Source of the DNA: Candidatus Auribacterota bacterium
GTDB taxonomy: Bacteria; Auribacterota; UBA6266
NCBI GenBank assembly: GCA_023136205.1
Contig: JAGLRQ010000116.1
Location: 1-18,118, forward strand
Direction of reading: 5' to 3'
DNA length: 18,118 nucleotides
A model generated the notes under the pieces. The model worked only from the letters and a program-made list of their open reading frames with translations, did not search any database and was not told the DNA's origin. Below are positions 1 through 15,396 of the stretch, in pieces (the stretch's first letter is position 1; the number at the start of each line of letters is the position of its first letter). Made by a program: the position numbers and the translations under genes.

Positions 1-927
1 AAAAGACTTTACGCGGAAATATCCCGATCTATAGGTTTTTACAGAATACAGTCCGGCGGGTCGGCGCTGGAACGCCTGATATTTTCAGGTGGAACAAGCC
101 AGCTTACCAACATCAGAGAATATTTTCTTAAAAAGCTCAATATCAGAACGGAAATGGTGGAACCTTTTAGCCAGCTGGAAATTGATCCTTATCTGGGCCT
201 TGAAGAACTGGCTTCTTTAAAGCACCTCTTCGCGGAAGCTATAGGGCTTGCGCTTAGAAAAGTTCACAAATGTGCCATCCATGTTAATTTGATCCCGAGA
301 AAAATAGCCCGGCAGAGAGAAATTAATAAACGCAAAGGATATATTATTTTATCTGCCATCATGATTTATGTAATGATGGCAACGGTGGCGATTTATTCAC
401 GCGGCATTGTAATAACAACAAACGCGAACATTAAACAGTACGATCTCCTGGTACGTGAGATGAACGGGTTCAAGCATGAAATAAATCAGAAAGAGAAGAA
501 TATTAAGGGATATAAAAATGAGCTGGATTTGTATGAAAAACTGATGGATGAGAGAGTCTACTGGCTGGATTTATTACTGACGCTTGAAAAAATTACCCCG
601 GAAAATATATGGATTTCCAAACTAATGCCGAAGAGCTCTTACAAAAGTTCCAAAACATTGGCGCCCTCTGTTTCGAGAAGGAGCGCAAGGGGCCGCAAAA
701 CAACAAAGAGTGTTGATTCTTTGGCGGAAGACGGGAAAGAGATCCTTCTTCTCGTCGCGAATACTACAGGTGTTTATGACGATGTTTATAAGTATTTCAA
801 AAAGTTAAAAGATTCAGGTTATTTTGTTGAGGATTCTGATACGAAAATTGACAAGGCAGAAAAACCTGTTCTGGGAATAAGAAAATTCTATTTCGAGCTT
901 AAGCTTAAAAAGGAAATTCCCAAATGA
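1..927 (+). CDS. Type IV pilus assembly protein: PilM C-terminal end fused in frame to PilN (5' partial, ORF open to the window edge)
   Basis: Frame 1 has no stop from nt 1 to the TGA at 925-927. The ATG at 154 in the ORF track is therefore an internal Met. nt 1-264 translate to KRLYAEISRSIGFY..LIFSGGTSQLTNIREYF..VEPF..AEAIGLALRKV, which matches the conserved C-terminal end of actin-like PilM (GGGA..L, NPF, A.GLALR). From about nt 277 the sequence reads HVNLIPRKIARQRE (the PilN INLLP motif). It is followed by a TM helix (GYIILSAIMIYVMMATVAIY), a coiled coil and an alpha/beta C-domain. Confidence 0.8.
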   Translation, partial: KRLYAEISRSIGFYRIQSGGSALERLIFSGGTSQLTNIREYFLKKLNIRTEMVEPFSQLEIDPYLGLEELASLKHLFAEAIGLALRKVHKCAIHVNLIPRKIARQREINKRKGYIILSAIMIYVMMATVAIYSRGIVITTNANIKQYDLLVREMNGFKHEINQKEKNIKGYKNELDLYEKLMDERVYWLDLLLTLEKITPENIWISKLMPKSSYKSSKTLAPSVSRRSARGRKTTKSVDSLAEDGKEILLLVANTTGVYDDVYKYFKKLKDSGYFVEDSDTKIDKAEKPVLGIRKFYFELKLKKEIPK

Positions 928-1682
928 TAGAGATTAAAAAAGATATTACTCTGTATATAACACTGGGGGTTTTAGCGGTTTTGCTGGTTGTTTTTGTGTT
1001 TATCCTGCGCGAGGCTTTATCCTCAAAATCCGACGCGGAGTCTGAACTTCAGCAGAAGATAGCAGAAAACAAAACCCTTTTTCGGGATGCCTCCGTGCCT
1101 TCCGTAATTACAGTTTCCGCGCTTAAGAAAGAGGAGAATCGTATCAGGGCTCAGAAAAACAGTATATATAACCTTCTTATTGACGCGGATACGAAAGAAG
1201 ATGAAGATATGGAGTATCCTTCGCCCGTAGAATTTAAGGATAAGCTGCTTTCCTATCAAACCAGGCTGGTTAACAGGGCCGATGCAAACGGCGTGAAGTT
1301 GCCCGGGACCCTTGGTTTTGAAGAATATGAAGGCGGAGACCTGCCCAGTATGAAGGATATCCCTCTTTTGATACGGCAAATGAAGATAATTGAAAAACTG
1401 GTAAATCTGTTTATCGATAGCCGTGTACAGCTTGTGGAAAAAATAGAGAGGGAGGAGACTAAAATATCCGAATGCAGGCACATTGATGGAATTTGCACGG
1501 TCTTGAACTTTAGCCTTGAAATGACTTGTCAAACGCCCGCACTTATAAAGTTTATGGGGGGGCTTGAATTTTTGAATAGCTTTATAATTATAAAAAATAT
1601 GGGAATAGAAGCGGATAAGATAAATAAAGTAAAAATGTTCATAAAAGCAGTAGACTTTAGAAAAGAAAATGAAAATTCCTAA
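924..1682 (+). CDS. pilO: PilO-like (GspM-like) bitopic inner-membrane pilus alignment protein
   Basis: The start shares an ATGA overlap with the upstream stop (924-927), and AAGGA lies 9 nt upstream. The protein has an N-terminal TM helix (ITLGVLAVLLVVFVFIL) and a coiled coil. Its C-terminal ferredoxin-like segment (FSLEMTCQTPALIKFMGGLEFLNSFIIIKNMGIE) fits the PilO pattern G.Y..l..Fl..L. The gene sits directly after PilN. Similarity is at the architecture and motif level only. Confidence 0.6.
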   Translation: MIEIKKDITLYITLGVLAVLLVVFVFILREALSSKSDAESELQQKIAENKTLFRDASVPSVITVSALKKEENRIRAQKNSIYNLLIDADTKEDEDMEYPSPVEFKDKLLSYQTRLVNRADANGVKLPGTLGFEEYEGGDLPSMKDIPLLIRQMKIIEKLVNLFIDSRVQLVEKIEREETKISECRHIDGICTVLNFSLEMTCQTPALIKFMGGLEFLNSFIIIKNMGIEADKINKVKMFIKAVDFRKENENS

Positions 1683-3276
1683 AATACCAAAGTTGAATTT
1701 TTCAGGGTTTGCGAAACCAAAGATTTTGGGGGGGATTGTAAAAAATCTTGAAAAGATTGTTTTTTTGATCCTTGAGGCTATATGGCTTGTTATGCTGGTA
1801 ACCTGCCTTATTAAACTTTACACGAATAATGTCAGGGCAAAACCTATTAGAGTAGCAGGAGGAGGTATTTTAAAGGAAGGGATAGAAGTAGATTTAAAGA
1901 AATATGAAGAAATTGAAAAAAGAATTAAGAAATTGAAAGAGGGACATGGAGGCTTGGACTTAAAAATCACGAAAGATATTTTTTGCAGGGAAGAAATAGA
2001 GATAGATCCCGTCATAGAGGAAATGGTAGTGGACAGTGACAAAGATGGTATGCCTGATGAATGGGAAAAGATGTATGGATTAAACTTAAGAAAAGCTTCC
2101 GATGCTGATGAGGATAAGGATGTTGACGGATACACAAACCTTGAAGAATTTGAAGCCGGAACGGATCCAACCAATCCTAACAGCAATCCCGGTGACATAG
2201 AATTTTTGTTAAGGAGATATACTCTGAAAGCTATTTCCAGGGAAACGGTGTCGCTTATTTTCATGGGATACACGCAGTGGAAACCCGAGTATCTTGATCT
2301 GCAGATAAACTGGCAGAACATGAGTTTTTTTCCAAGAATCTGGAGGGTAAGTGAAGATAATCCGGATATATATGAAGGTTTCCATATTACTGAAGAACGA
2401 TATAAGGAAGAGCTTGAAGGTAAAATAAGTGTTGGGAAACCAAGTATTAATTCCAGCAGTATTAATAAAATCCGGGCAATTCCTGAACTTGATCACAGCA
2501 TTGTTCAGGCTATAATAAATAGCAGGCAGAAAAGTATTGTAAAGCATATTTCAGATCTGTTAGAGTTTATTCAGTTGACTCCGGAGGAGCTGACGGTTGT
2601 TCATGATAAAGTTGCCGCGGAGGTTAATGTTAATAATTGTTCCGAGAATGAATTGGCCGAATTTTTTGGGATTTCCGCGAGTAACGCGAAAAAGGTAGTT
2701 GCGTATCGCGGGGAAAAAGGGTATTATAAAAACTTGAAAGAATTTCTGAGAGTTGCTGATGTTCCAACCTCACGACTTAAAGAGATTAAAGATATTCTTG
2801 TCGCAAAGCTTGATATTAATTCCGCGAACAGGAAAGATATAATTAAGTTCTTTGAAGATGAACGGTTAGCTGACGCGATATTGTTTTACAGGGAAGTGCA
2901 GGGACTTTTCAAAGATAAATATGATGTAGTTTCGCGTGGGAGGATTCAGGGATACTGGGTTATTTCATGTGAGGTCAAGATCAGGGAACTTCCGCCAAAA
3001 CCCGGGAGGCCCTATGGCCAAAAGATAAACGAGTCGGAAACGGTAATTCGGATGAGGGGCAGCGACCCTGTACTACTTCAATTTAAGAAAGTTACACAGG
3101 GCAAAGAACTTTTCGCGCGTGTTTACGATAAGACTTTAAATAAAGATGTTATGTGGAATGCCGGAACGGTAATTGGAAGCGATAAATCAAAATTTGAAAT
3201 TGTAGAAATAAACAAAAATGAAGTTGTCTTAAGCAAAAGAGGCGACAAATATCTGTTAAAATATAGCGGTAAATAA
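1669..3276 (+). CDS. Membrane-anchored PilP-position protein with a TSP3-like Ca-binding motif, three ComEA-like HhH modules and a PilP/GspC-HR-like C-terminal domain
   Basis: The gene overlaps the pilO-like gene by 14 nt. A TM helix lies at about aa 30-52. Residues 121-172 read DSDKDGMPDEWEKMYGLNLRKASDADEDKDVDGYTNLEEFEAGTDPTNPNS. Residues 259-422 hold three tandem units that resemble ComEA (IN.A...EL..LPGIG...A..II.YR...G.F.s.edL). The best one is VNVNNCSENELAEFFGISASNAKKVVAYRGEKGYYKNLKEFLRV. The C-terminus (GTVIGSDKSKFEIVEINKNEVVLSKRGDKYLLKY) resembles the PilP/GspC HR beta-domain consensus. Confidence 0.6.
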   Translation: MKIPKIPKLNFSGFAKPKILGGIVKNLEKIVFLILEAIWLVMLVTCLIKLYTNNVRAKPIRVAGGGILKEGIEVDLKKYEEIEKRIKKLKEGHGGLDLKITKDIFCREEIEIDPVIEEMVVDSDKDGMPDEWEKMYGLNLRKASDADEDKDVDGYTNLEEFEAGTDPTNPNSNPGDIEFLLRRYTLKAISRETVSLIFMGYTQWKPEYLDLQINWQNMSFFPRIWRVSEDNPDIYEGFHITEERYKEELEGKISVGKPSINSSSINKIRAIPELDHSIVQAIINSRQKSIVKHISDLLEFIQLTPEELTVVHDKVAAEVNVNNCSENELAEFFGISASNAKKVVAYRGEKGYYKNLKEFLRVADVPTSRLKEIKDILVAKLDINSANRKDIIKFFEDERLADAILFYREVQGLFKDKYDVVSRGRIQGYWVISCEVKIRELPPKPGRPYGQKINESETVIRMRGSDPVLLQFKKVTQGKELFARVYDKTLNKDVMWNAGTVIGSDKSKFEIVEINKNEVVLSKRGDKYLLKYSGK

Positions 3277-3293: not shown

Positions 3294-5759
3294 ATGTGTG
3301 TTAAAAAAATCTTAAAAATTTGTGCGCTTTATATATCGGTTACTGTTTTTTGTTCACTGGCAACTTTTTCTCTCGCGGTAGATTCTGAGATAGAAACAGC
3401 GTTAAGACAGCAGGAGAGAAAAATTGCTGCCGAACACGTTGTGGAAGACGGTATAGCGTTTTACAAAGCAGGGGATTTTGCTGCTGCCCGGAAAGAGTTT
3501 CTGAAAGTTAAGGAACTTGATCCCGGCAATGAAGCCGCGGAAAAATATCTTGCTAAGATAGAAAATAAATTGCTTAAAGCCCGGAAAAAAATGCTGAAGG
3601 ATAAGGTTAGAGCCGGGGTTTCCAATTATAAAGCGAAGAATTATGAACAGGCTGCTGAACTTTTCATGGAAGTGCTTGAAATTGACCCCAACCATTCCAA
3701 AGCACAGAAATATCTAGCGAAATGTGATACAAAGCTGGGGATTTTAGAAAAGAATATTTCCTCCGAAAAATATTCGGGTGTTACAACAAGAGAGACAAAC
3801 GAACTTTATGAAAGAGGCAGGCTTCTTTACGATAACGCGCGGTATGATGAGGCAAGAGAGATATTTTCAGAGATTATCGCGTATAGCCCCAATCATGTTC
3901 CCGCTTCAAGATACATTGATTCCTGTAACGCGAGGTTACAGGAAATAGCTGATGAAGACCAGGAAGTCTTAAATAAAGAAGAGATGATAACTCTTAGAAA
4001 GTCCTGGTTTCCCCAAAAAGAATTTGAAAAGGAAGAGATTCCTGCTGACATTATTGACCTGCCGGATCTAACAATAACGGCGGCAAGGGAAAAAATAGAG
4101 AAGGAACTTGACCAGATAATACCTTTGATAGATTTTACAAACGCGCATTTGAGAGACCTTATAACCTCTCTTTCCGGTATGAGCGGTGTCAATATTATTC
4201 TTGATGAGAGTGTTTTTCCCGTCGTGGGAGCACCTGAAGACGCAGTTCTGGAAGGGGATATAACCGCAGAAGAACTGCTTGAAGACGCGGACGCGGCGGA
4301 ATTGGCTGAACTTGAAGCGCTTCTCTCTGAGGAAATCGGTGAAACGGACTCATCAGGCGTTATTGCTCCTTCCGTTGAATCCGGCGTCGGTGGAGAGGTG
4401 ATTGATGACACAATTACGATATCTTTGAGGAATATTCCCTTAAGAGAGGCTCTTAGATATATTGTTAAAGCAAAAGGGCTTAAATACAGGATTGATGATT
4501 ATGCTGTTGTAATATCCACCCCTGAAAACCTGATAGATGAAGAAATGGAAACAAGATATTACCATCTTAAAAGCGGTATAGGCGCTTTCACTGCCTTTAT
4601 AAGAAAAGATGCTGGGGGGGAAGCAGGGGCAACAACAGTATTGGGAGGAAATGTTTCGACTGAAACGATATCTATAAAAGATGTTCTTGAGCAGAGCGGT
4701 GTTCCCTGGCCGGAAGGGAGTAAGATATTCCTGCATGAAAGAACCAGTACCCTTATAGCCAGAAACAGCCCGACAAACCTCTCGATAATAGAAGATGTGT
4801 TAAGAGTTCTTGATGTAACAGCCCTTCAGATAGAGATACAGGCTAAATTTGTTGACCTTAATGAAACAGATGCTTCTGAACTCGGGCTTGAGTGGATGTT
4901 GACATCTGACTGGGGTATAAAAAGAGATAAAAGCGGCCGTGGTATTACAATGAATAAGGATTCATTGTTCCCAACCCTTATGCCGGATGGTGGTCCGGGT
5001 TTTGGACGATATCCTGGAGGTGCTTCAACCAGCTATGGTTTAACGCGGGGCCTGAGGTTTTTGGAGGATGGTACAACAGGTAATCCCATTGGAAATATTT
5101 TAAGTATTGGTGGAATTTTAACTGAACCTGAGTTTCAGGTTGTCCTGCACGCTCTTTCTCGAAGTCAGGCTGCTGACATTTTATCCTCTCCAAGAATTGT
5201 TACGCTGAATAACCAGGAAGCAACCATTCGCATTGTTGATGAACTGATTTATCCAACTGAATATGAAATAACACCTCCGACGTGGAGGGTTGACCCTGAT
5301 GACGGAACTATAACGATGGTGAGTTACGCGGCGGTGGCACCCGGTGGTTTTGAGACAAGGGAAATTGGGGTAATTCTTAAGGTAATTCCCAATGTCGGTG
5401 CTGACAATAAAACAATTAATCTTGCAATAATCCCTGAAGTTAGTGAATTAAGTTCCTGGATAACGGATTATGATATTATATATGATTTGCAGAGAATAGC
5501 GTTACCCCAGCCTTTTATTTCAACAAGGCTGGTTACAACCAATGTTATAATAAATGATGGTGAAACGATTGTTCTCGGAGGGCTCATGAATGAGACAGCA
5601 ATAGAAAAGGATGATAAGATTCCTATACTGGGAGATATTCCGTTTTTGGGAAGGCTGTTTAGAACCGAATCCGAAAGCAATGAAAAGAGGAATCTTATGA
5701 TATTTGTGACGGCAAATCTTCTTACACCTACAGGTGAAGCCTTTGCAATCGGAGAATAA
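3294..5759 (+). CDS. pilQ: Outer-membrane secretin (PilQ/GspD family) with an N-terminal TPR region, paralogue 1
   Basis: AAGGGG lies 7 nt upstream of the ATG. The signal peptide ends at ..FSLA/VDSE. There are three TPR-like units, each ending in DP.N..A..YL.K. An N0/STN-like domain follows (IDFTNAHLRDLITSLSGMSGVNIILDE ... ITISLRNIPLREALRYIVKAKGLKYRIDDYAVVIS). The classic secretin C-domain is present (LSSPRIVTLNNQEATIRIV, GVILKVIPNV, INDGETIVLGGL, KIPILGDIPFLGRLFR, LMIFVTANLL). Confidence 0.9.
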   Translation: MCVKKILKICALYISVTVFCSLATFSLAVDSEIETALRQQERKIAAEHVVEDGIAFYKAGDFAAARKEFLKVKELDPGNEAAEKYLAKIENKLLKARKKMLKDKVRAGVSNYKAKNYEQAAELFMEVLEIDPNHSKAQKYLAKCDTKLGILEKNISSEKYSGVTTRETNELYERGRLLYDNARYDEAREIFSEIIAYSPNHVPASRYIDSCNARLQEIADEDQEVLNKEEMITLRKSWFPQKEFEKEEIPADIIDLPDLTITAAREKIEKELDQIIPLIDFTNAHLRDLITSLSGMSGVNIILDESVFPVVGAPEDAVLEGDITAEELLEDADAAELAELEALLSEEIGETDSSGVIAPSVESGVGGEVIDDTITISLRNIPLREALRYIVKAKGLKYRIDDYAVVISTPENLIDEEMETRYYHLKSGIGAFTAFIRKDAGGEAGATTVLGGNVSTETISIKDVLEQSGVPWPEGSKIFLHERTSTLIARNSPTNLSIIEDVLRVLDVTALQIEIQAKFVDLNETDASELGLEWMLTSDWGIKRDKSGRGITMNKDSLFPTLMPDGGPGFGRYPGGASTSYGLTRGLRFLEDGTTGNPIGNILSIGGILTEPEFQVVLHALSRSQAADILSSPRIVTLNNQEATIRIVDELIYPTEYEITPPTWRVDPDDGTITMVSYAAVAPGGFETREIGVILKVIPNVGADNKTINLAIIPEVSELSSWITDYDIIYDLQRIALPQPFISTRLVTTNVIINDGETIVLGGLMNETAIEKDDKIPILGDIPFLGRLFRTESESNEKRNLMIFVTANLLTPTGEAFAIGE

Positions 5760-5788
5760 ATTTTTTGAAGAAAGGGAGAAATAAAGTT

Positions 5789-8143
5789 ATGAGAAGGATA
5801 ACAGCAGGGAATATAAAAACCGCGTTAATAATCATGGGTACACTGTTTTTCTTTTGTGTTTCTGTACCGTTGTCCGCTCAGGTTGACAGCGGGTCAAAAC
5901 AGAATGCTGAAAAATTCGCGAAAGAGTATGCGAAACAGGTTGAGATTGAGCGCCAGGTAAATAAAATCGAGGTGCGAAGGCATATTGGTACGGCGGAAGA
6001 ATATGTGTCCAGGGGTATGTTTGTTGAGGCTAAAATTGAATATGAGAAAGTCCTTGAAATTGACCCGGATAACAAAACAGCCGGAAGCCGGATTTTGACC
6101 CTGAAAAAGAAAATAGTGAAAGCCAGAGCAAAAGAGCTGAATGCGAAGGTTCGTGGAGGGATTAACGCGTATAACGAGGCCAGGTATGCCGCGTCTGTTG
6201 AGATGTTTCAGGATGTGCTGAATGAAGACCCTAGAAATAAGAAAGCTATGAAATATCTCGCGAAGGCCAAAGCAGCCCTTTTCGCTGAAGGCAGTTCGGT
6301 AAGTGTAGTAAAGGAAGTAATTGTGGAAAACGGAAGCCTGGTTCTGGACAACATTGGGAAAGCTAAACAGCTTTATACAGAAGGGGTTCTTTATTATAAG
6401 AATGGAAGGTATCCCGAGGCTGTTCCGTTTTTTAAGAAAGCCCTGGAGCTGAATCCCGATCATGCCCAGGCACGCAGGTATCTTGAGCGGTCACTTGCCG
6501 GTGAGCGAGAAAATACTGATGATGTATGGGATGACACAAAGGATGCTTATATTGAACAGGTTGATAAACACTGGCTTACGGAAAAAAGGAAACTTATCAA
6601 AGAAGAACCTGATAAGGATGTTTTTGAATCAGCTCCGAAAAAGGACTCCGCGGCCAAATTAAACATAGAGAAAAATCTCCGGCAGGTTATTCCTTCCATT
6701 AAACTTAAAGATGCTAATCTGAAATACGTGGTAAAACACCTTTCAGGTTTAAGCGGGATTAATATTCTTCTTGACCCCGCGGCAAGGGAAATAGAAAACC
6801 AGAACATAACAATATCGCTTACCGATATTCCCCTGCTCGAAGCTATAAAATATATTGTCCGCGCGAAGGGGCTGGTGTATAGAATTGACGATTATGCTGT
6901 AGTTATTACAACAAGCGAAAGGCTTTTTGACGAAGAAATGGAAACGAGATATTACCAGCTTGCCTCAGGTGTAACAAGCGGTTCTGTTTTTAGCACAAGC
7001 TTCGCGGAAACCGCGGGTGAAACAACGACTATTGGAACGGCTGCGGCTTTTGAATCTACCACGACAATTCAGGATGTTCTTGAAGAATCAGGTGTTCCTT
7101 TTCCTGAAGGAAGCAAGATATTTCTTGATAAAAGAACCGGTATACTTATAGTAAGAAACACCCCTTCAAATCTTAGTATTATTGAAGAAGTCCTACAGAA
7201 ATTAGATGTGGTTCCTTACCAGATTGAGATTGAAGCCAGATTTGTTGAATTAACTGAAACGACTTATAAAGAGCTCGGAATTGAGTGGATGTTAACCAAC
7301 CAGTTGTCAATAGGCAATGATTATGCTCTAAACCCCCTTCCATGGATTGATTCTACCGGAAAAGCAGGGGATGGACAGTACGGGGATACTTGGGGTAGAG
7401 AAGGAATAACCCATGGTGTAAGATTTCTGGAAGATACCGTAGGCGAACCTCGGGGAAATATAATGAGATTGTCAGCAGTACTGGGATCATTAGAATTTTC
7501 GGCAATTTTACATGCTCTTGCTCAGAAGGGGGATTCAAATGTGCTCTCAGCCCCAAAGGTTACCACTGTAAACAACAGCCAGGCGCAGATTAAAATTGTA
7601 AGTGAATTGATATATCCTACAGAGTTTGAGATTACACCTCCTTCGACAAATGAATGGGGAAGCATTGTTACGCCTGCTGTTGTTATTCCGGGCACATTTG
7701 AAACCAGGGAAGTTGGAATTTTACTCAGTGTTGTTCCTACTGTGGGGGCTGATAAGAAAACTATAACACTTGCGATTATTCCTGAAGTCAGCAGTTTGAC
7801 CTCTTGGATAAACTATGGAACTGATCGTTTGCCTGCCAGACAGCCGCAGTTTGAAACACGAAACCTGAGCACAAGTGTTGTGATAAATGACGGGGACACG
7901 GTTGTAATGGGCGGCCTTATAAAGGAAACTACAACAAACACTGAGGATAAGATTCCTATATTAGGAGATATCCCTTTTATAGGAAGGTTGTTTAGGAATG
8001 ATTCAAATGAATCCGTGAAGAAAAACCTTGTTATTTTTGTTACTGCTAAACTTGTTACGCCTCGCGGTGACCTTCTGAAGGAATTTATGGCAGGCGGCTC
8101 CGGTACCGGTATTGAGTCGAAATCTCTGATTAGTATTGATTAA
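5789..8143 (+). CDS. pilQ: Outer-membrane secretin (PilQ/GspD family) with an N-terminal TPR region, paralogue 2
   Basis: The architecture matches paralogue 1. It has a signal peptide (..VPLSA/QVDS), three TPR-like units and an N0/STN-like domain (IKLKDANLKYVVKHLSGLSGINILLD ... ITISLTDIPLLEAIKYIVRAKGLVYRIDDYAVVIT). The secretin domain is also present (LSAPKVTTVNNSQAQIKIV, GILLSVVPTV, INDGDTVVMGGL, KIPILGDIPFIGRLFR, LVIFVTAKLV). I prefer the ATG at 5789, with GGGAG at 5774-5778, over the TTG at 5765 in the ORF track. Confidence 0.9.
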   Translation: MRRITAGNIKTALIIMGTLFFFCVSVPLSAQVDSGSKQNAEKFAKEYAKQVEIERQVNKIEVRRHIGTAEEYVSRGMFVEAKIEYEKVLEIDPDNKTAGSRILTLKKKIVKARAKELNAKVRGGINAYNEARYAASVEMFQDVLNEDPRNKKAMKYLAKAKAALFAEGSSVSVVKEVIVENGSLVLDNIGKAKQLYTEGVLYYKNGRYPEAVPFFKKALELNPDHAQARRYLERSLAGERENTDDVWDDTKDAYIEQVDKHWLTEKRKLIKEEPDKDVFESAPKKDSAAKLNIEKNLRQVIPSIKLKDANLKYVVKHLSGLSGINILLDPAAREIENQNITISLTDIPLLEAIKYIVRAKGLVYRIDDYAVVITTSERLFDEEMETRYYQLASGVTSGSVFSTSFAETAGETTTIGTAAAFESTTTIQDVLEESGVPFPEGSKIFLDKRTGILIVRNTPSNLSIIEEVLQKLDVVPYQIEIEARFVELTETTYKELGIEWMLTNQLSIGNDYALNPLPWIDSTGKAGDGQYGDTWGREGITHGVRFLEDTVGEPRGNIMRLSAVLGSLEFSAILHALAQKGDSNVLSAPKVTTVNNSQAQIKIVSELIYPTEFEITPPSTNEWGSIVTPAVVIPGTFETREVGILLSVVPTVGADKKTITLAIIPEVSSLTSWINYGTDRLPARQPQFETRNLSTSVVINDGDTVVMGGLIKETTTNTEDKIPILGDIPFIGRLFRNDSNESVKKNLVIFVTAKLVTPRGDLLKEFMAGGSGTGIESKSLISID

Positions 8144-8225: not shown

Positions 8226-10862
8226 ATGTCGAAAAAAACCTTTTTAATGATTGATGGTATGTCATTTGTTTACAGGGCGTACTATGCCATCAGGCAGTTA
8301 ACAACTTCTTCGGGATTTCCTACCAACGCTATTTTTGGTTTTATAAACATGCTTGAAAAACTTATTAACGATTATAGCCCTGATTATATGGCGGCGGCAT
8401 TTGATACGAAAGAACCTACTTTCAGGCATGAGAAATACAAGGATTATAAATCACAGAGAAAGCCTATTCCTGAAGATTTGATACCGCAGTTAGGCCCGAT
8501 TAAAGATATTATAAGAGCTTTTAATATACAGCTTTTTGAATGTCCCGGTTACGAAGCTGATGATATTTTAGCAACGCTTGCCGCCAAAACCGGCGCCGGA
8601 GCTATTAAGTCTATTATCGCCACCGGTGATAAGGATATGTTTCAGATTATTGACGGAGAGAATATATTTGTTCTTTCCCCCGGGGGAGGGGGTAAGGAAA
8701 ATATTCTGTACGATCCTGAGAGGGTAGAACAGAAATTTGGGGTAAAACCTGACAAAATTGTTGATATGCTCGCGCTTGCGGGGGATTCCGCGGATAACAT
8801 TTCAGGGGTTCCCGGCATAGGTTTAAAAACGGCTAAAGCACTTTTGGATGAGTTTGGTTCACTTGAAAATATATTATCTGAAACTGACAAAATTAAAAGC
8901 CCGGCCCGCAGGCACGCTATAAAGGAACATGCCGATAAAGCAAGATTTTACAGGGAACTGGTTACGGTAAATACACGGGCTCCTGTTGATTTTAGAATAG
9001 AAGAATGTATGCGCAAAACTCCTGATTTAAATAAATTGCTCGAACTTTTTAGAAAGTTTGAGTTCACAAAACTTGCATACAAGTACAGCGCGAAAGAACA
9101 AATTTCTGAAGACGCTGTAATTATTAATAATATAAAGGAAGCAGAAAAGTTCTTTAAAAAACTTGAAGGCTCGGAAAGACTTTATTTCAAAACGATTTTT
9201 GATAGTGGAGAACCTTTTGGTGATGTGAATATTGTCGGCATTGCCGCGATGGTTGATGGGGTAAAACCCGCTTTTATTTCTACGGAAGGTATTGGATTAA
9301 AGGAATTAATTCGTTTGATAGGCCCGGTTTTGCGGGATCCTGAGATTAAGAAAGCGGGATATGGACTGAAAAATGAAATAGTTAATTTTAAAAAGCTTGG
9401 AATAGATATCGAAGGCATAGAATTTGATGCTGAAATTGCCGCTTATATATTAAATCCTTCAAGAAAAGATTATTCTCCTGAATCAATTATATCTCTTTAT
9501 TCAAATATGATTATACTCCCGGTAGAGAGAAAGAAGGAAGAGCGGGATTTATGGCTTAAACAGGCTGCTTCAAATCTCTGCGGGTGTGTAAAAGCCCTTC
9601 CCGGAGTATGCAAGAGCCTTTTGGCGGAAATTAAGGAAAAAGCGGTGGTTAAACTTTTTAAGGAAGTGGAAATGGGCCTTTTATATGTACTGGCGGAAAT
9701 GGAGTGTGAAGGAGTAAAAATAGATGTAAAAACATTGACCAGGCTTTCCGGTGAATTTCACCGCGGGATTAGTAAAATTGAAGAGGAAGTTTATAATATA
9801 GCAGGGGAAAAGTTTAACCTGAATTCTTCAAAGCAGCTGGGAAAGATTTTGTTCGAAAAACTGAAACTTCCCGTTATTAAGAAAACTAAAACGGGATATT
9901 CTACGGATGATGAGGTTTTAGAAGTTTTGAAAAACAAACATCTTCTTGCCGGACTTATAAAAAACTACAGGACGCTTTCCAAACTAATTTCCACATATGT
10001 GGACTCCATGCCGTTGTTAATTTCTAAAAAGACGGGCAGGCTTCATACAACATTTAATCAGACTGTAACTTCTACGGGACGCCTTAGTTCAAGTAATCCA
10101 AACCTCCAGAATATCCCCATAAAAACCGAAGAAGGAAGGAAAGTGAGGGAAGCTTTTGTTCCAAGGGAGGGCTGGTTTTTGATTTCTGCGGATTATTCAC
10201 AGATAGAACTCAGGATTCTTGCCCACCTTTCAAAGGATGCCGGACTTGTCCGGGCATTTAAACAAGGAGAGGATATTCATACTTTTACGGCTGCCCTTAT
10301 AAACGGCATTGAACTTGAAAATGTAACAGAAGAAATGAGAAATGCCGCAAAAGCCGTTAATTTCGGCATTATTTACGGGATCAGTTCCTTTGGACTCGCG
10401 AAAAACACAGGTGTAGATAAAAAAACGGCAGGGGAGTTTATTAAGAGTTATTTTGAGAGGTATCCCGGAGTAAAAGTATTTATTGACGGGCTTATAAAGG
10501 AAGCCAGAGAAAAAGGATATGTGAGCACCATATTTAACAGGAGAAGGTACATAAATGAGTTTAAGTCCTCAAATGCTGTGGAAAGAAATTTTGCCCAAAG
10601 GGCAGCGGTGAATACTGCAATCCAGGGTTCAGCGGCAGATATTATTAAGATTGCAATGCTTAAGGTAAATGAAAAACTTAAAGAAGAGTCTTTTCAGGCG
10701 AGGATGATTTTGCAGGTTCATGATGAGCTGCTGCTTGAGGTACCTCCGCTGGAACTTAATCTTTTGGAAGAACAAATCCGCGGCATTATGGAAAATGTTG
10801 TTGCTCTGGATGTTCCTTTGAAGGTAAAGGTAAATAGTGGTAAAAGCTGGGCGGAAATTTAG
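8226..10862 (+). CDS. polA: DNA polymerase I
   Basis: 5' nuclease motifs are intact (IDGMSFVYRAYYA, GYEADDILATLA, TGDKDMFQI, GDSADNISGVPGIGLKTA). Polymerase motif A (DYSQIELRILAH), motif B (RNAAKAVNFGIIYG) and motif C (QVHDELLLE) are present. The central 3'-5' exonuclease-like domain has degenerate catalytic motifs. Confidence 0.97.
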   Translation: MSKKTFLMIDGMSFVYRAYYAIRQLTTSSGFPTNAIFGFINMLEKLINDYSPDYMAAAFDTKEPTFRHEKYKDYKSQRKPIPEDLIPQLGPIKDIIRAFNIQLFECPGYEADDILATLAAKTGAGAIKSIIATGDKDMFQIIDGENIFVLSPGGGGKENILYDPERVEQKFGVKPDKIVDMLALAGDSADNISGVPGIGLKTAKALLDEFGSLENILSETDKIKSPARRHAIKEHADKARFYRELVTVNTRAPVDFRIEECMRKTPDLNKLLELFRKFEFTKLAYKYSAKEQISEDAVIINNIKEAEKFFKKLEGSERLYFKTIFDSGEPFGDVNIVGIAAMVDGVKPAFISTEGIGLKELIRLIGPVLRDPEIKKAGYGLKNEIVNFKKLGIDIEGIEFDAEIAAYILNPSRKDYSPESIISLYSNMIILPVERKKEERDLWLKQAASNLCGCVKALPGVCKSLLAEIKEKAVVKLFKEVEMGLLYVLAEMECEGVKIDVKTLTRLSGEFHRGISKIEEEVYNIAGEKFNLNSSKQLGKILFEKLKLPVIKKTKTGYSTDDEVLEVLKNKHLLAGLIKNYRTLSKLISTYVDSMPLLISKKTGRLHTTFNQTVTSTGRLSSSNPNLQNIPIKTEEGRKVREAFVPREGWFLISADYSQIELRILAHLSKDAGLVRAFKQGEDIHTFTAALINGIELENVTEEMRNAAKAVNFGIIYGISSFGLAKNTGVDKKTAGEFIKSYFERYPGVKVFIDGLIKEAREKGYVSTIFNRRRYINEFKSSNAVERNFAQRAAVNTAIQGSAADIIKIAMLKVNEKLKEESFQARMILQVHDELLLEVPPLELNLLEEQIRGIMENVVALDVPLKVKVNSGKSWAEI

Positions 10863-10879
10863 AAAAACAAAAAAAGAAA

Positions 10880-10983
10880 TTAACCACAAATAACACGAAT
10901 TTTCACAAATTAAAAAAAATACTAGATTATTTATTCGTGCAGATTTCCCTCCAGAATGGGACAGGTGTGTGATTAGTGGTTAA
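10880..10983. repeat. 17-nt imperfect inverted repeat (15/17) bracketing ~70 nt in the polA-downstream spacer
   Basis: TTAACCACAAATAACAC (10880-10896) is complementary to GTGTGATTAGTGGTTAA (10967-10983), with mismatches at 2 positions. An inner inverted repeat pairs CACGAAT (10894-10900) with ATTCGTG (10933-10939). CACAAAT occurs as a direct repeat at 10885 and 10904. Confidence 0.5.
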
Positions 10984-11060
10984 AAAATTAGATACTGGAA
11001 TTTAGATCATTAGAATTCGTTTCGGATTTCGTGCTTCGAATTTAGTATTTTTAACTTCAG

Positions 11061-13103
11061 GTGACCGATATTAAAACAATTAAAACAAACAAAATTATCA
11101 TTAGCGCGATTACAGTCATTGCTCTTCTTTCCATCTATTGCGGGAGTGTCTGGTTGAGGCTGGAGATAAGGAAGCATCACGAAGAGCAGTATGGAAGAGA
11201 ACTGCCGTTTACGCTTGAAAGCGCGTTGCTTTTTAAATATGCTTCAATGCTTTCAAAAGGCGAAGCCATACCTGATATTGATAAGAGCGCTCAGTATCCT
11301 GAAGGGCTGAAGGTAAAGGAAAGGCTTTCAATAGGCGGCGAAATTTTACCCGCGTTTATTTACAGGGTTGTAAAACCGGCTATTTCATTTCAAGGATTTA
11401 TGAGGATTTTTTTCCCCTTGTTTTATTCAATTGGCATATTTGGTATTTATCTGTCGGCGAAAGAACTTTCGGGCACAAAAATCGGGGGGCTTATTGCTGC
11501 CGCGATATACGCCTTTTCGGCCGCTTCAGTTGTACGTTCAACAGGCCTGGAGTTTTCCAGGGAAAACTTCGCGCTGCCGTTTATCTGTTTTCATCTGGCT
11601 TTTGTTTCGATATATGTACGCCGCCGCTCTGTTTTTGCTGTAGTAGGATCCGCGCTGACCCTGGGAGCGGCACAGTGTGTATGGGATCTTACCCAGATAT
11701 ATATTGTTTTTATGGCTGTTATTATCATCGGGTATTTTTTGATTAATGGGAGCATCGGTAAGTACAGGGCGATACTTTTTTACAATACTCTTGCCCTGGT
11801 ATTTGCCGGGCTGGTTTCTCCATATTTAAGATGGCATTCTTTCTTAAGTTCATATATTATGGGGTCCCTCTATGTAACCTTAATTCTGTCGATTTTTCAG
11901 CCCCGAATAAAATTTCTTGCAAAAAAATATTATCTTGCTATAATATGGATAAGTTTGTACGTTATCTCCTGTTTTATATCTTATTATGGCTCAGAATACG
12001 GCGATGTTTATTCAAATTTTATATCCCTGCTTTTTGGAAAATTAAGATACTTTAATAAAATACCGCTTGATTCATCGAAATTAAACTGGGATGTTCGGGT
12101 GTTATGGACACCTGCTCTTGATTCGGTTAGCTTAAAGTCCTTTTTAAATTATTTTCATGCTCTGCTAATTGTCTTTTTTCTCGGTTTTGCGGGAATGTTA
12201 TTAAGTAGAATCAGAAGCCGCAATCCTTCTCTTTATCTGATGGTTCCGATGGTTTTGTTCTTCTGCTTCTTGTGTTTCTTTTTTAGAAGGATGTTTGTGT
12301 TCTTTGTAATACCCTTTTCTGTTGTCGCGGGGTTTGTTCCTCTGATATTCAGAAAAAATCGGTTTTTCAGGGCTCTGATTATAGTGGTTGTGTTTTTCTT
12401 TATATTTTTTGAGGGAGAAAGGTGTTATGCCCGGAGGAACCTGTGGCGCCGTGATGTAAGGTATCTGGAGCTGGAAGATATTTCGATCTGGGCAAGAGAA
12501 TCAACGCCTGAAGGCTCAGTTGTCCTGGCAAACTTTACTCTTTCTCCTGTAATTAATTATTATGCCGGAAGGAGTATTGTTATACATCCTAAATTTGAGG
12601 ATCCCGCGCTGCGGGAAAAAGTATTTGAATACGGCAGGGCTATCTTCAGCGTGGAGGAAAGTGATTTTATTGATTTCTGTGATAAATACGGGGTTAACTA
12701 TTTTATTTTTTCAAGAGGGACTTACTCGACGGTTTCTCCGTATTCAATGAGATATATATGGAATGTAAAAAGCGAGGTGCCCTCCAGCGCGGCGGCAAAA
12801 TTTAAAAGATACGGAGATGCCCCATACAGGTTTATTCCCCTTTACTACAATGGAAAATACAGGGCATACTACTTTGTTTCCGCGGGGGAAATGGGACTTA
12901 TTAATGAGTATATGGCCGAGTCTGACAGGCTGTTTCGAGAAGGTGATAAGGCTTCTGCCGTAAAGATGCTGGAAAAGGTTTTGAAGATTTATCCGCTTTA
13001 TAAAGAAGCCTGTTTCCGGTTGGGCAAATTGTATATGGAAGATGGCAGGGTTAGAGAAGGGCTTAACCTGCTCAAAAACGCGAAAGAAATGTTGTTTGAA
13101 TGA
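11061..13103 (+). CDS. Polytopic GT-C fold membrane protein, STT3/PglB/AglB-like oligosaccharyltransferase homologue with WWDYG replaced and a C-terminal TPR
   Basis: The GTG at 11061 is the first start after an in-frame TAA (11052-11054), and no clear SD is present. There are more than 10 hydrophobic helices. Loop motifs resemble STT3: LPFTLESALLFKYA (EL1 acidic motif) and VRSTGLEFSRENFALPF (compare RSVAGSYDNEGIAIF). The soluble C-domain aligns by eye with eukaryotic STT3: WARESTPEGSVVLA-NFTLS-PVINYYAGRSIVI versus WLR.[28 protein letters not shown]. A second stretch, GRAIFSVEESDFIDFCDKYGVNYFIF, aligns with [25 protein letters not shown]. The last ~70 aa are TPR-like. Confidence 0.55.
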   Translation: MTDIKTIKTNKIIISAITVIALLSIYCGSVWLRLEIRKHHEEQYGRELPFTLESALLFKYASMLSKGEAIPDIDKSAQYPEGLKVKERLSIGGEILPAFIYRVVKPAISFQGFMRIFFPLFYSIGIFGIYLSAKELSGTKIGGLIAAAIYAFSAASVVRSTGLEFSRENFALPFICFHLAFVSIYVRRRSVFAVVGSALTLGAAQCVWDLTQIYIVFMAVIIIGYFLINGSIGKYRAILFYNTLALVFAGLVSPYLRWHSFLSSYIMGSLYVTLILSIFQPRIKFLAKKYYLAIIWISLYVISCFISYYGSEYGDVYSNFISLLFGKLRYFNKIPLDSSKLNWDVRVLWTPALDSVSLKSFLNYFHALLIVFFLGFAGMLLSRIRSRNPSLYLMVPMVLFFCFLCFFFRRMFVFFVIPFSVVAGFVPLIFRKNRFFRALIIVVVFFFIFFEGERCYARRNLWRRDVRYLELEDISIWARESTPEGSVVLANFTLSPVINYYAGRSIVIHPKFEDPALREKVFEYGRAIFSVEESDFIDFCDKYGVNYFIFSRGTYSTVSPYSMRYIWNVKSEVPSSAAAKFKRYGDAPYRFIPLYYNGKYRAYYFVSAGEMGLINEYMAESDRLFREGDKASAVKMLEKVLKIYPLYKEACFRLGKLYMEDGRVREGLNLLKNAKEMLFE

Positions 13104-13678
13104 AAATCGCAATAACCGGCGGAATATGTTCGGGGAAAAGCACTGTTCGCGCCATTCTTGAAAAGCGCGGTATTGAAATTATTGATGCCGATGACCTTGC
13201 GAGAGAATCCGCGGAATTGAGTAAGGAGAGAATATTACAGCATTTTGGCCCTGGATATTTTGATGTAAAGGGGAAATTAAACCGGGCAAAACTTGCGGAG
13301 AAAATTTTTAGTTCTCCTGAAGAAAAAAAAGCTCTGGAAAGAATATTGCATCCTGTAATAATTTCTCTCATAAAACAGGGAATGGAATGTTTTGAAAAAG
13401 ACGAAAAAAAATATATAGTAATAGCTCCGCTGATTTTTGAAACGGATATTGGCGAATTATTTGATTATGTCATTTTGCTTTCATGCGGGCAGCAGCAGCA
13501 GATAAAAAGGCTTACGGAAAGAGAGCAAATAGCGAAAGAGAAGGCTTTTGAGAGGATAAGAGTTCAGTTTTCTGACGAGGAAAAGGGTAAAAAGGCTGAC
13601 TTTATAATAGATACTTCCTGCAGTATTAGTGAAACAGAAGAAGTAATAATAAAACTTTTAGAAAAAATAGGTTTTTAA
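13100..13678 (+). CDS. coaE: Dephospho-CoA kinase
   Basis: The start shares an ATGA overlap with the upstream stop (13100-13103). The N-terminus MKIAITGGICSGKSTV carries the P-loop. The protein is 192 aa, and LHP and DFIIDTS-type motifs typical of CoaE are present. Confidence 0.9.
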   Translation: MKIAITGGICSGKSTVRAILEKRGIEIIDADDLARESAELSKERILQHFGPGYFDVKGKLNRAKLAEKIFSSPEEKKALERILHPVIISLIKQGMECFEKDEKKYIVIAPLIFETDIGELFDYVILLSCGQQQQIKRLTEREQIAKEKAFERIRVQFSDEEKGKKADFIIDTSCSISETEEVIIKLLEKIGF

Positions 13679-13689
13679 GGAGGAATTAA

Positions 13690-15075: not shown

Positions 15076-15084
15076 TATTCCCGG

Positions 15085-15115
15085 TTGCATAAATTCTTGA
15101 CAGATAGAGTATAAT
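15085..15115 (+). promoter_or_regulatory. Candidate sigma70-type promoter for rpmE-prfA (TTGCAT-N19-TATAAT)
   Basis: A perfect TATAAT sits at 15110-15115 in the 105-nt rho-rpmE spacer. The only -35-like hexamer at usable spacing is TTGCAT (15085-15090), and its 19-nt spacer is longer than optimal. The perfect TTGACA at 15097-15102 is only 7 nt from the -10 and so is not a partner. Confidence 0.25.
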
Positions 15116-15180
15116 TACATTTTGAATTTATTAGTGGGATTTTTGTGAGATAATTTAATTAGCAGAGAGGAAAATATACA

Positions 15181-15393
15181 ATGAAAGATAAAATCCATCC
15201 AAAATACGCGGAATCTACTGTTACCTGTGCTTGTGGAGAGGTAATCCATACCCGTTCCACAAAGCCGGAGATTCATGTGGGCATTTGTTCAAAATGCCAT
15301 CCGTTTTTTACAGGTAAACAGAAGCTCGTGGACTCAGCGGGCCGTATAGAGAAGTTTATGAGGAAGTACGGCAAAAAGAAGGCCGGAGAGTAA
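15181..15393 (+). CDS. rpmE: 50S ribosomal protein L31, Zn-ribbon (Cys-containing) type
   Basis: The sequence [37 protein letters not shown] is nearly identical in pattern to E. coli L31, and all four Zn-ligand Cys are retained. A GAGAGGA SD lies about 9 nt upstream. Confidence 0.95.
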
Positions 15394-15396
15394 TCC

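What the first reader, a model, noticed from the sequence alone, without database searches (positions are those of the whole stretch)
1669..3276. PilP-slot protein carrying three ComEA-like HhH modules: a candidate DNA-handling adaptor tethered beneath the secretin
The domain order inferred by eye is as follows. A TM anchor lies at about aa 30-52. A coiled, charged linker follows. An acidic DxDxDG / GTDP TSP3-like Ca-binding motif spans aa 121-172 (nt 2029-2184). An unassigned beta-rich segment comes next. Three tandem ComEA-like HhH units span aa 259-422 (nt 2443-2934). The protein ends in a PilP/GspC-HR-like domain at aa ~455-533 (nt 3031-3267). In competent Gram-negative bacteria ComEA is a separate periplasmic DNA receptor that ratchets DNA in through PilQ. 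Fusing such modules to the protein that docks on secretin N0 would place DNA-binding domains at the periplasmic mouth of the channel. One caveat applies. Only the middle module keeps a G-I-x hairpin (FGISASNAKKVVAYR). In the other two the GIG position is ELD or DER, so DNA binding may be weakened or repurposed.
Basis: partly seen in the sequence, partly recalled or inferred. Interest (0 to 1): 0.75.

Follow-up and report, generated by a model that had tools for sequence, protein, structure and literature searches.

The report
PilP-slot pilus protein with inserted HhH array
This gene encodes the membrane-anchored connector of a type IV pilus-like machine in an uncultured Auribacterota bacterium. 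A 200-residue block of ComEA-type helix-hairpin-helix modules has been inserted into it, but the residues ComEA needs to bind DNA are gone, so a DNA-handling role is possible but not supported.

Summary
The ORF (1669..3276, 535 aa) is real and the domain order read by eye is largely correct. The protein has a TM anchor, two TSP3 Ca-binding loops, three ComEA-type HhH units and a C-terminal beta domain.

The gene sits in the Amuc_1099 slot of an Akkermansia-type pilus cluster: PilM/N fusion, Amuc_1100-like, this gene, then two tandem secretins.

New points:
- The "unassigned beta segment" (aa 183-224) and the C-terminal domain (aa 425-531) are one conserved scaffold. They are contiguous in about 20 HhH-less orthologs of roughly 260 aa that occupy the same syntenic slot.
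- The HhH array is therefore a 200-aa lineage-specific insertion. It occurs in only 4 of 185,579 GTDB species genomes and in one 50%-identity cluster out of 1.84 billion.
- Module 3 is truncated.
- None of the five hairpins keeps G-h-G plus Lys. The single G-I-S hairpin is lost in the 55%-identical relatives.
- Similarity of the scaffold to the PilP/GspC/GspB HR domain is coherent but weak.

Verdict: this is a new domain-insertion variant of a known kind of component. The architecture is confirmed, secretin docking is plausible, and canonical DNA binding is unlikely (about 0.2-0.25).

The parts
1..927 (+). 3' part of a PilM-PilN-like fusion gene (Amuc_1101 family). The ORF is open to the window's 5' end.
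   Evidence: NCBIfam Amuc_1101_fam E=3.8e-25. The frame is open from base 1. Orthologs of 578-584 aa carry PilM_2/FtsA domains.
924..1682 (+). Amuc_1100-family pilus-like protein (PilO slot)
   Evidence: NCBIfam Amuc_1100_fam E=1.1e-16. Pfam Amuc_1100 is recorded on the orthologs.
1669..3276 (+). Target ORF, 535 aa: Amuc_1099-family (PilP/GspB/GspC-slot) protein with an inserted HhH array
1753..1821 (+). N-terminal TM anchor (aa 29-51), predicted N-in, C-out
   Evidence: Direct reading shows a Lys-rich aa 1-28 followed by a hydrophobic stretch. AF2 models helix 21-55.
1969..1992 (+). Linker motif TKDIFCRE (aa 101-108), aligned with the conserved RD(L/I)F motif of the HhH-less orthologs
   Evidence: Alignments. 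It also lies within the Amuc_1099_fam match aa 96-177.
2029..2184 (+). Two TSP3-type Ca-binding loops (aa 121-172)
   Evidence: Pfam TSP3_bac. Amuc_1099_fam profile positions 77-157. TSP3 protein hits.
2215..2340 (+). N-terminal half of the conserved beta scaffold (aa 183-224)
   Evidence: BLASTP to the HhH-less ortholog P0262, aa 113-154, E=3e-5. AF2 pLDDT 59-90.
2341..2940 (+). Lineage-specific 200-aa insertion (aa 225-424): a low-confidence linker plus the HhH array
   Evidence: The two BLASTP segments are 2 residues apart in P0262 and 200 apart in the target. See also alignment A6.
2443..2616 (+). HhH module 1 (aa 259-316), a complete (HhH)2 with hairpins E-L-D and Q-L-T
2617..2802 (+). 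HhH module 2 (aa 317-378), a complete (HhH)2 with hairpins G-I-S and D-V-P. It is the only module above the Pfam cutoff.
   Evidence: HHH_3 68 bits. TIGR00426 E=3e-12. AF2 pLDDT 68-86. Foldseek 2edu and 5ol9, probability 0.97.
2803..2937 (+). HhH module 3 (aa 379-423), truncated after the first HhH and linking helix, hairpin F-E-D. It is the most conserved segment of the insertion.
2941..3261 (+). C-terminal half of the beta scaffold (aa 425-531). Its last ~60 residues are HR-like (GspB/GspC/PilP type).
   Evidence: BLASTP to P0262 E=4e-10. AF2 pLDDT 69-93, all-beta. Foldseek 4wfw, probability 0.77. Pfam T2SSB E=0.016. GspC_delta in 8 of 12 orthologs.
3294..5759 (+). Secretin 1, with N-terminal TPR repeats and an N0/STN block (Amuc_1098 family)
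5765..8143 (+). Secretin 2, a paralog 40% identical to secretin 1, with the same N0 block

Best explanation
The ORF encodes the inner-membrane-anchored periplasmic connector of an Akkermansia Amuc_1098-1102 (MUL2)-type type IV pilus-like machine from a Candidatus Auribacterota bacterium (PVC group). It is the Amuc_1099 / PilP-GspB-GspC slot protein.

Shown:
- It shares with Amuc_1099-family proteins the slot, the N-terminal TM helix, a (K/R)D(I/L)F linker motif and two TSP3 Ca-binding loops.
- It shares with about 20 HhH-less Auribacterota orthologs a bipartite beta scaffold (aa 183-224 plus 425-531).
- A 200-aa block (aa 225-424) has been inserted into a loop of that scaffold in one small clade. 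It carries two complete and one truncated ComEA-type (HhH)2 modules.
- The block is under purifying selection overall.

Inferred:
- The scaffold, whose C-terminal part resembles the HR domain of GspB/GspC/PilP, docks on the N0 domain of one or both secretins. The N-terminal region contacts the PilM/N-Amuc_1100 platform.
- The HhH arm then hangs in the periplasm beneath the secretin.
- The fold-determining residues of the HhH units are kept, but the G-h-G hairpins and the DNA-contacting Lys are lost. The arm is therefore most likely a repurposed, non-canonical module, such as a protein-contact arm, a spacer, or at best a weak polyanion binder. It is unlikely to be a ComEA-like DNA clamp.
- The highly conserved truncated module 3 probably packs against the scaffold.
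For: Cluster identity: NCBIfam hits for Amuc_1101, Amuc_1100, Amuc_1099 and Amuc_1098 on four to five consecutive genes. The target scores 46.9 bits and its 91% relative P0002 scores 50.3 bits, against an Amuc_1099_fam cutoff of 50. The intermediates P0272 and P0273 align to that profile out to position 226, into the beta scaffold.

Synteny: identical in L001-L008.

Ortholog without HhH: P0156 (263 aa) occupies exactly the same slot.

Insertion: mapped by BLASTP and MAFFT.

Rarity: one 50%-identity cluster in 1.84e9 proteins and 4 GTDB species.

HhH units.

Loss of hairpin and Lys determinants, with the fold residues N4, I25, R29 and an aromatic at position 28 in most modules retained: set against the V. 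cholerae ComEA mutagenesis in PMC3879209.

Selection: dN/dS is 0.23 overall, 0.28 for the array and 0.07 for M3. M3 is 78-80% identical in relatives that are 55% identical overall.

HR-like scaffold: AF2 gives an all-beta fold with pLDDT 69-93. Foldseek matches the OutB/GspB HR domain 4wfw with probability 0.77 and rmsd 2.0 A over 52 columns. Pfam T2SSB gives E=0.016 and hits 5 of 25 family members. NCBIfam GspC_delta hits 8 of 12 orthologs, best E=2.8e-4. HR domains share only 10-17% identity with each other and bind secretin N0 (PMC9239104).

Partner domain: both secretins carry the N0/STN block.
Against: - No HR-family match is statistically significant on its own. The Foldseek E-value is 1.8, and Pfam PilP and T2SSC give no hit at all.
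- hhalign against E. coli GspB and GspC, and profile searches of PDB sequences, found nothing.
- Modules 1 and 3 and the linker aa 226-273 are modelled at low confidence.
- The claim that the arm does not bind DNA canonically rests on motif loss only. Some HhH-like domains bind DNA without perfect G-h-G hairpins, and the net charge of the array (0 to -7) does not differ from that of solved ComEA HhH domains (-2).
- In the closest relative, dprA and a comM-like gene lie just upstream of the cluster.
Confidence: 0.6

Rival explanations
1. Tethered DNA receptor. The HhH array binds incoming dsDNA at the periplasmic mouth of the secretin and acts as an anchored ComEA-like ratchet or hand-off module for DNA uptake, either for transformation or for DNA as a nutrient.
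For: - The modules are of the ComEA HHH_3 type rather than another HhH class. HHH_3 gives E=6.7e-19 and TIGR00426 (ComEA HhH region) gives E=3e-12.
- The closest solved sequence relatives are B. subtilis-type ComEA (8dfk, 8dss) and a tandem-HhH EEP-domain protein.
- The topology is periplasmic, next to two secretins.
- dprA, a comM-like gene and yraN lie 1.5-7 kb upstream in the 91% relative.
- The homologous Akkermansia machine is implicated in polymer (mucin) import.
- The array is retained under purifying selection in four species.
Against: - Zero of five hairpins keep G-h-G.
- The residues equivalent to V. cholerae G60 and K63, where G60E and K63E abolish uptake, are D/S/D and I/N/L.
- The only G-I-S hairpin is not conserved in the 55% relatives.
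- M2 is the fastest-evolving part of the array, while the truncated M3 is the most conserved.
- The dprA/comM neighbourhood is not conserved in the other HhH-bearing genomes.
- TIGR00426 and comEA (TIGR01259) scores are below their cutoffs.
- HhH folds have known non-DNA uses. GspK and PsbU models cross-hit here.
Confidence: 0.22
2. The beta scaffold is a lineage-specific fold unrelated to PilP/GspC/GspB HR domains. The protein is still a pilus-machine component, but it contacts something other than secretin N0, for example peptidoglycan, the TPR domains or the Amuc_1100-like protein.
For: No HR-family match reaches significance. The conserved scaffold (about 150 aa) is twice the size of an HR domain. 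A test for an internal HR-like repeat was not significant, at probability 4.9%.
Against: Three independent weak signals all point to the same superfamily: T2SSB, GspC_delta and the 4wfw structure. 4wfw is the only beta-domain structural hit with appreciable probability. The gene position and TM-plus-periplasmic-beta topology match GspB/GspC. HR domains are known to be nearly unrecognisable by sequence.
Confidence: 0.15
3. Assembly or gene-calling artefact: a chimeric ORF joining a ComEA-like gene to a PilP-like gene.
For: None. The only related oddity is that one database entry (P0254) was called from an internal start.
Against: The same 534-536-aa ORF occurs in independent assemblies from NCBI, ENA and Logan. 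It is intact in a 1.99-Mb contig. dN/dS is 0.23.
Confidence: 0.01

Closest known systems
Amuc_1099 family pilus-like system protein (NCBIfam NF042425; MUL2 locus of Akkermansia muciniphila)
   Same: It occupies the same slot in the same cluster: Amuc_1102, PilM-like Amuc_1101, Amuc_1100, this gene, then the secretin Amuc_1098. The flanking coaE and rho are also shared. It has an N-terminal TM helix and the linker-plus-TSP3 segment aligns to profile positions 77-157. Intermediates align to position 226. The function of Amuc_1099 itself is uncharacterised (PMC13174399).
   Different: The target is 214 aa longer than the 321-position profile because of the 200-aa HhH insertion. It scores 46.9 bits against a cutoff of 50. 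The C-terminal half does not align to the profile. It is followed by two secretins instead of one.
HR (homology region) domain proteins GspB/OutB, GspC and PilP
   Same: The gene lies directly upstream of the secretin. Like GspB and GspC it has a bitopic N-in TM anchor and a periplasmic beta domain. It gives weak matches to Pfam T2SSB, NCBIfam GspC_delta and the structure 4WFW. N0 domains are present in the neighbouring secretins.
   Different: There is no Pfam PilP or T2SSC hit. It is not a lipoprotein like PilP, has no PDZ domain like GspC and has no recognised PG-binding tail like OutB. The scaffold has an additional N-terminal beta half, and the HhH array is inserted into it.
ComEA (periplasmic DNA receptor; Pfam HHH_3, TIGR00426, TIGR01259)
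   Same: The (HhH)2 unit is the same, with the N-x-N-t-A start, the A..I..YR helix and the G-x-F turn conserved. The location is periplasmic, next to a type IV pilus-type secretin.
   Different: There are three tandem units, one of them truncated, embedded in another protein. The G-I-G hairpins and the Lys pair shown to bind DNA in V. cholerae ComEA are absent. Scores are below the ComEA model cutoffs.
HhH-like modules with non-DNA roles: GspK alpha-domain (Pfam T2SSK) and PsbU
   Same: These are HhH-type helical modules working in the periplasm or lumen as protein parts. In GspK the helical domain is likewise an insertion into a beta-sheet domain (from memory of the GspK structure, not tested here). 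T2SSK, T2SS_GspK and PsbU models give weak cross-hits.
   Different: The target matches HHH_3 far better than T2SSK (68 vs 22 bits). The host domain is not a pilin.

Membership tests
Amuc_1099 family (NF042425) | Gene lies between the Amuc_1100-like gene and the Amuc_1098-like secretin, in a cluster with the PilM-like Amuc_1101 and Amuc_1102 | tested here: met
Amuc_1099 family (NF042425) | Whole-protein HMM score at or above the curated cutoff (50 bits) | tested here: inconclusive
   The target scores 46.9 bits. Its 91% relative P0002 scores 50.3, while P0004 and P0005 score 41.3 and 38.6. Only profile positions 77-157 of 321 align.
Amuc_1099 family (NF042425) | Colinear C-terminal domain shared with the family | tested here: inconclusive
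   The intermediates P0272 and P0273 extend the match to profile positions 209-226. There is no match to positions 227-321. No Amuc_1099 structure or model could be compared.
PilP / GspC-HR / GspB-HR domain | Small beta-sandwich HR fold | tested here: inconclusive
PilP / GspC-HR / GspB-HR domain | Recognised by family HMMs (Pfam PilP, T2SSC, T2SSB; NCBIfam GspC models) | tested here: not met
   T2SSB gives E=0.016 at 15.3 bits against a cutoff of 28.4. GspC_delta gives a best E=2.8e-4 at about 17 bits against a cutoff of 150, in 8 of 12 orthologs. PilP and T2SSC give no hit.
PilP / GspC-HR / GspB-HR domain | [quoted passage not shown] | not testable with these tools
   N0/STN blocks are present in both secretins. 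No multimer prediction was available.
PilP / GspC-HR / GspB-HR domain | Encoded next to the secretin and after the PilN/PilO-type genes | tested here: met
ComEA | (HhH)2 domain of the HHH_3 type | tested here: met
   M2 scores 68 bits against a cutoff of 27. M1 scores 21.2 bits and M3 16.1 bits, both below cutoff. All three are found by an independent unit HMM, and 0 of 2000 shuffles reach their scores.
ComEA | G-h-G hairpins and a basic residue at +2/+3 that contact DNA phosphates (V. cholerae G60, K62, K63) | tested here: not met
   The hairpins read E-L-D, Q-L-T, G-I-S, D-V-P and F-E-D. The +2/+3 residues are S-I, S-N and R-L. Mutagenesis reference: PMC3879209.
ComEA | Curated ComEA model cutoffs (TIGR00426 53.1 bits; TIGR01259 152 bits) | tested here: not met
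   46.4 and 38.1 bits
ComEA | Binds dsDNA without sequence specificity | not testable with these tools
   Requires EMSA or anisotropy on the purified fragment.

The most novel reading that the evidence does not exclude
One Auribacterota clade has re-tooled an Amuc_1099/MUL2-type polymer-import pilus machine for nucleic-acid uptake. It did so by inserting ComEA-derived modules directly into the secretin-docking protein. This would give a membrane-tethered periplasmic DNA receptor or ratchet at the channel mouth. It would use non-canonical contacts, possibly Ca2+-assisted and TSP3-adjacent, in place of G-I-G/Lys. The fusion would be a natural "Rosetta stone" linking the pilus alignment complex to ComEA function.
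Probability: 0.18. Interest if true: 0.75.

Novelty: new variant of a known kind. Interest (0 to 1): 0.4.

Why it matters
How DNA is passed from the pilus and secretin to periplasmic ComEA is still poorly defined. A natural protein that physically joins a secretin-docking scaffold to ComEA-type modules would be direct genomic evidence that the two act at the same place. It would also give a compact construct to test that idea.

If the modules do not bind DNA, the case is still useful in two ways:
- It shows that the uncharacterised Amuc_1099 (MUL2) slot protein belongs with the GspB/GspC/PilP-type connectors.
- It shows that this slot protein tolerates large domain insertions. That helps interpret the much-studied Akkermansia Amuc_1098-1102 locus and its relatives across the PVC group.

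It is also a clear example of an HhH fold kept while its DNA-binding signature decays.

Tried and rejected
Structure prediction and fold search:
- The first AF2 run on the full protein with 6 sequences was unusable, with mean pLDDT 37.

Sequence and profile searches for the scaffold:
- Profile searches of PDB sequences with the scaffold (A4, A7) gave only chance-level hits: bL17c, BT_2262 at E=0.03, and Pol III epsilon.
- hhalign of the C-terminal scaffold profile against E. coli K-12 GspB and GspC gave probability 0.1%.
- A test of whether the scaffold is two HR-like repeats found only a 12-column match at probability 4.9%. That idea was dropped.

Arguments that did not discriminate or were not used:
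- Net charge and pI of the HhH array do not discriminate. Solved ComEA HhH domains are also slightly acidic.
- The alternative alignment places the ortholog strand "SIRGYAIERFEKV" on target aa 233-248 (A3). It was rejected in favour of aa 425-438, which MAFFT A6, BLASTP and AF2 all support.
- dN/dS of 1.95 for M1 rests on very few substitutions (dS 0.027) and is not interpreted as positive selection.

Searches that could not be run as planned:
The scan was therefore done with the HhH-bearing profile only.
- Whether a stand-alone comEA or comEC exists in these genomes could not be tested with the tools and caps available.
Full report
**1. What is in the sequence**

The ORF at 1669..3276 (+, 535 aa) is real. 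It overlaps the stop of the upstream ORF by 14 nt, and its N-terminus aligns from Met1 with homologs.

Pfam finds HHH_3 at aa 317-375 with E=6.7e-19. It also gives a sub-threshold TSP3_bac hit at aa 153-170 and weak T2SSK and HHH_6 hits on the same HhH stretch.

NCBIfam identifies the neighbourhood:
- The ORF open at the window's 5' end (1..927) is the C-terminal part of an Amuc_1101-type PilM(-PilN) fusion.
- 924..1682 is Amuc_1100-family.
- The target matches Amuc_1099_fam at aa 96-177, profile positions 77-157 of 321, E=2.8e-12, 46.9 bits against a cutoff of 50.
- 3294..5759 and 5765..8143 are two Amuc_1098-type secretins with N-terminal TPR repeats.

Downstream lie polA, a Dpy19-like membrane protein, coaE, rho, rpmE, prfA and a prmC-like gene (by eye; not scanned).

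So the gene occupies the Amuc_1099 slot of the Akkermansia-type type IV pilus-like cluster. That is the position PilP holds in pilMNOPQ.

**2. Relatives and distribution**

Only about seven 90%-identity clusters share the architecture, among 5.8 billion. They are P0001-P0006 and P0254, and some are fragments.

A full HMMER scan of 1.84 billion cluster representatives used a profile of aa 175-535. It found a single 50%-identity cluster with the whole architecture. All other hits were tandem-HhH proteins, apart from one, P0156, which matched the C-terminal domain only.

A scan of one genome per GTDB species (185,579 species) found four carriers. All are Auribacterota-type MAGs, and Auribacterota belongs to the PVC group.

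Synteny is the same in every locus fetched: Amuc_1102-like, PilM fusion, Amuc_1100-like, target, secretin, secretin, polA, Dpy19-like, coaE.

**3. The HhH array is an insertion, not a linear fusion**

Profile searches with the non-HhH parts recovered about 20 proteins of roughly 260 aa from Auribacterota, including Ca. Ancaeobacter aquaticus. They also recovered four proteins of about 348 aa that carry a zinc ribbon and TSP3 but no HhH.

P0156 (263 aa) sits in exactly the same slot of an otherwise colinear locus, which also shows the PilB/PilT-type ATPases and PilC upstream.

BLASTP of the target against the HhH-less P0262 gives two segments:
- target aa 183-224 = P0262 aa 113-154 (E=3e-5)
- target aa 425-531 = P0262 aa 157-258 (E=4e-10)

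The two pieces are 2 residues apart in the ortholog and 200 apart in the target.

Residues 225-424 are a lineage-specific insertion made of a low-confidence linker plus the HhH array.

MAFFT (A6) and the second AF2 model agree on which strand rejoins the scaffold after the insertion. It is aa 429-435, "YWVISCE".

**4. The HhH modules**

Scanned alone, M1 (aa 259-317) hits HHH_3 with E=3.2e-4. M3 (aa 375-431) hits it with E=0.012, over profile positions 5-45 only.

I built an independent unit HMM from 334 units of unrelated tandem-HhH proteins. It finds three domains in each of the five family members:

| Module | Residues | Score | Note |
|---|---|---|---|
| M1 | aa 260-314 | 18.6 bits | complete |
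| M2 | aa 319-376 | 49.1 bits | complete |
| M3 | aa 382-422 | 16.2 bits | ends at HMM position 43 of 60 |

In shuffle controls, 0 of 2000 shuffles reach the real score for any module. The array is therefore two complete (HhH)2 modules plus one module truncated after its first HhH.

The closest solved sequence relatives of M2 are ComEA (8dfk, 8dss) and a tandem-HhH EEP-domain protein. The AF2 model of M2 has pLDDT 68-86 and matches the HhH domains 2edu and 5ol9 with probability 0.97.

**5. Are they DNA-binding?**

I aligned the modules to the unit consensus. Most fold-determining positions are kept: N4, I25 (V in M2) and R29 in all three modules, A22 in M2 and M3 (V in M1), an aromatic at 28 except in the target's M1 (S), and F35 as V/Y/F. 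The hairpins are not kept:

| Hairpin | Consensus | M1 | M2 | M3 |
|---|---|---|---|---|
| HhH1 | G-I-G | E-L-D | G-I-S (E-V-S, K-V-S or K-V-A in the 55% relatives) | F-E-D |
| HhH2 | G-I-G | Q-L-T | D-V-P | absent |

In V. cholerae ComEA, G60E or G60V in the HhH1 G-I-G hairpin, and K63E, abolish DNA binding, uptake and transformation (PMC3879209). The equivalents of G60, K62 and K63 in the three modules are D/S/I, S/S/N and D/R/L.

M2, the most ComEA-like module, is only 45-52% identical in relatives that are 55% identical overall. The truncated M3 is 78-80% identical and has dN/dS 0.07. The array as a whole has dN/dS 0.28.

Charge is uninformative. The array has net charge 0 to -7, and solved ComEA HhH domains have -2.

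So the fold is maintained under selection while the canonical DNA-contact signature is gone. I put canonical or near-canonical DNA binding at about 0.2.

**6. Is the scaffold PilP/GspC/GspB-like?**

Evidence in favour:
- The gene position.
- The GspB/GspC-like topology of an N-in TM helix followed by a periplasmic beta domain.
- An AF2 all-beta C-terminal domain at pLDDT 69-93.
- The only beta-domain Foldseek hit with appreciable probability is the OutB/GspB HR domain 4wfw, at probability 0.77, rmsd 2.0 A over 52 columns and target-normalised TM 0.45.
- Pfam T2SSB gives E=0.016 on the isolated C-terminus and hits 5 of 25 family members.
- NCBIfam GspC_delta hits 8 of 12 HhH-less orthologs over their last ~40 residues, best E=2.8e-4.
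- HR domains of GspB, GspC and PilP share only 10-17% identity and all bind secretin N0 (PMC9239104).
- Both neighbouring secretins keep the N0/STN block.

Evidence against:
- Nothing is individually significant.
- Pfam PilP and T2SSC do not hit.
- hhalign against E. coli GspB and GspC, and PDB sequence-profile searches, found nothing.

I rate HR-type docking at about 0.65-0.7.

**7. Link to Amuc_1099**

The target's match to the Amuc_1099 model covers the (K/R)D(I/L)F linker motif and the TSP3 loops. P0002 reaches the curated cutoff with 50.3 bits. The TSP3-bearing intermediates P0272 and P0273 extend the match to profile positions 209-226, which is into the scaffold.

In Akkermansia the locus is called MUL2. 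Amuc_1099 and Amuc_1100 are still uncharacterised there, and pili are implicated in mucin import (PMC13174399; bioRxiv 10.1101/2024.03.27.586211; PMC5332112).

**8. Verdict**

- Observation: essentially right, with three corrections. The array is an insertion rather than a linear fusion, the third module is truncated, and the scaffold is bigger.
- Interpretation: the PilP-slot connector reading is supported. "DNA-handling adaptor" is not supported by the sequence determinants but is not excluded.
- Novelty: a new domain-insertion variant of a known kind of component, confined to four uncultured species.
- Interest: moderate, 0.4. It would rise to about 0.75 if DNA binding were shown.

Noticed in passing
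window 3294..5759 and 5765..8143: Two tandem paralogous secretins with N-terminal TPR repeats, 40% identical over their full length. They occur as a pair in every Auribacterota locus seen, whereas Akkermansia has one (Amuc_1098). Secretin 1 carries an extra acidic stretch of about 60 aa (aa ~297-356) beside the N0 block. This raises the question of a heteromeric or double secretin.
   Followed up: partly
window 8226..16464; L001, L004, L005, L007, L008: Deep synteny downstream of the pilus cluster: polA, a Dpy19-like GT-C membrane protein with a TPR tail (11061..13103), coaE, rho, rpmE (15181..15393) and prfA. coaE and rho also flank MUL2 in Akkermansiaceae (PMC13174399), so the linkage is conserved across PVC phyla.
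   Followed up: partly
L005 836..3618 (the 91%-identical relative): dprA (DNA_processg_A), a comM-like Mg-chelatase/AAA ATPase and yraN (UPF0102) lie just upstream of the pilus cluster. In the 55% relatives (L002, L007) that place is occupied by other genes. The window starts too late to show its own upstream region.
   Followed up: no
L002 1..3584; L007 1..2294: A protein of at least 1299-1306 aa, GspK/T2SSK-like, with a single ComEA-type HhH unit near its C-terminus (27.9-30.4 bits). It is followed by two or three N_methyl pilin genes, upstream of the cluster in the 55% relatives.
   Followed up: partly
P0272-P0275: Variants of the same slot protein, about 348 aa, with a CxxC...CxxC zinc ribbon right after the TM helix plus TSP3 loops but no HhH. 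A zinc ribbon on the predicted periplasmic side is unusual.
   Followed up: no
window 1969..1992 (aa 101-108) and the orthologs in A4/A6: A conserved (R/K)D(I/L)F motif in the otherwise variable linker, shared by HhH-bearing and HhH-less orthologs and included in the Amuc_1099_fam match. It is a possible contact site for the PilN/PilO-like platform. The analogy to the PilP N-terminal region is from memory only.
   Followed up: no
window 1..927: The PilM-like ORF continues into a PilN-like TM/periplasmic part as one reading frame, an Amuc_1101-type PilM-PilN fusion. Orthologs are 578-584 aa.
   Followed up: partly
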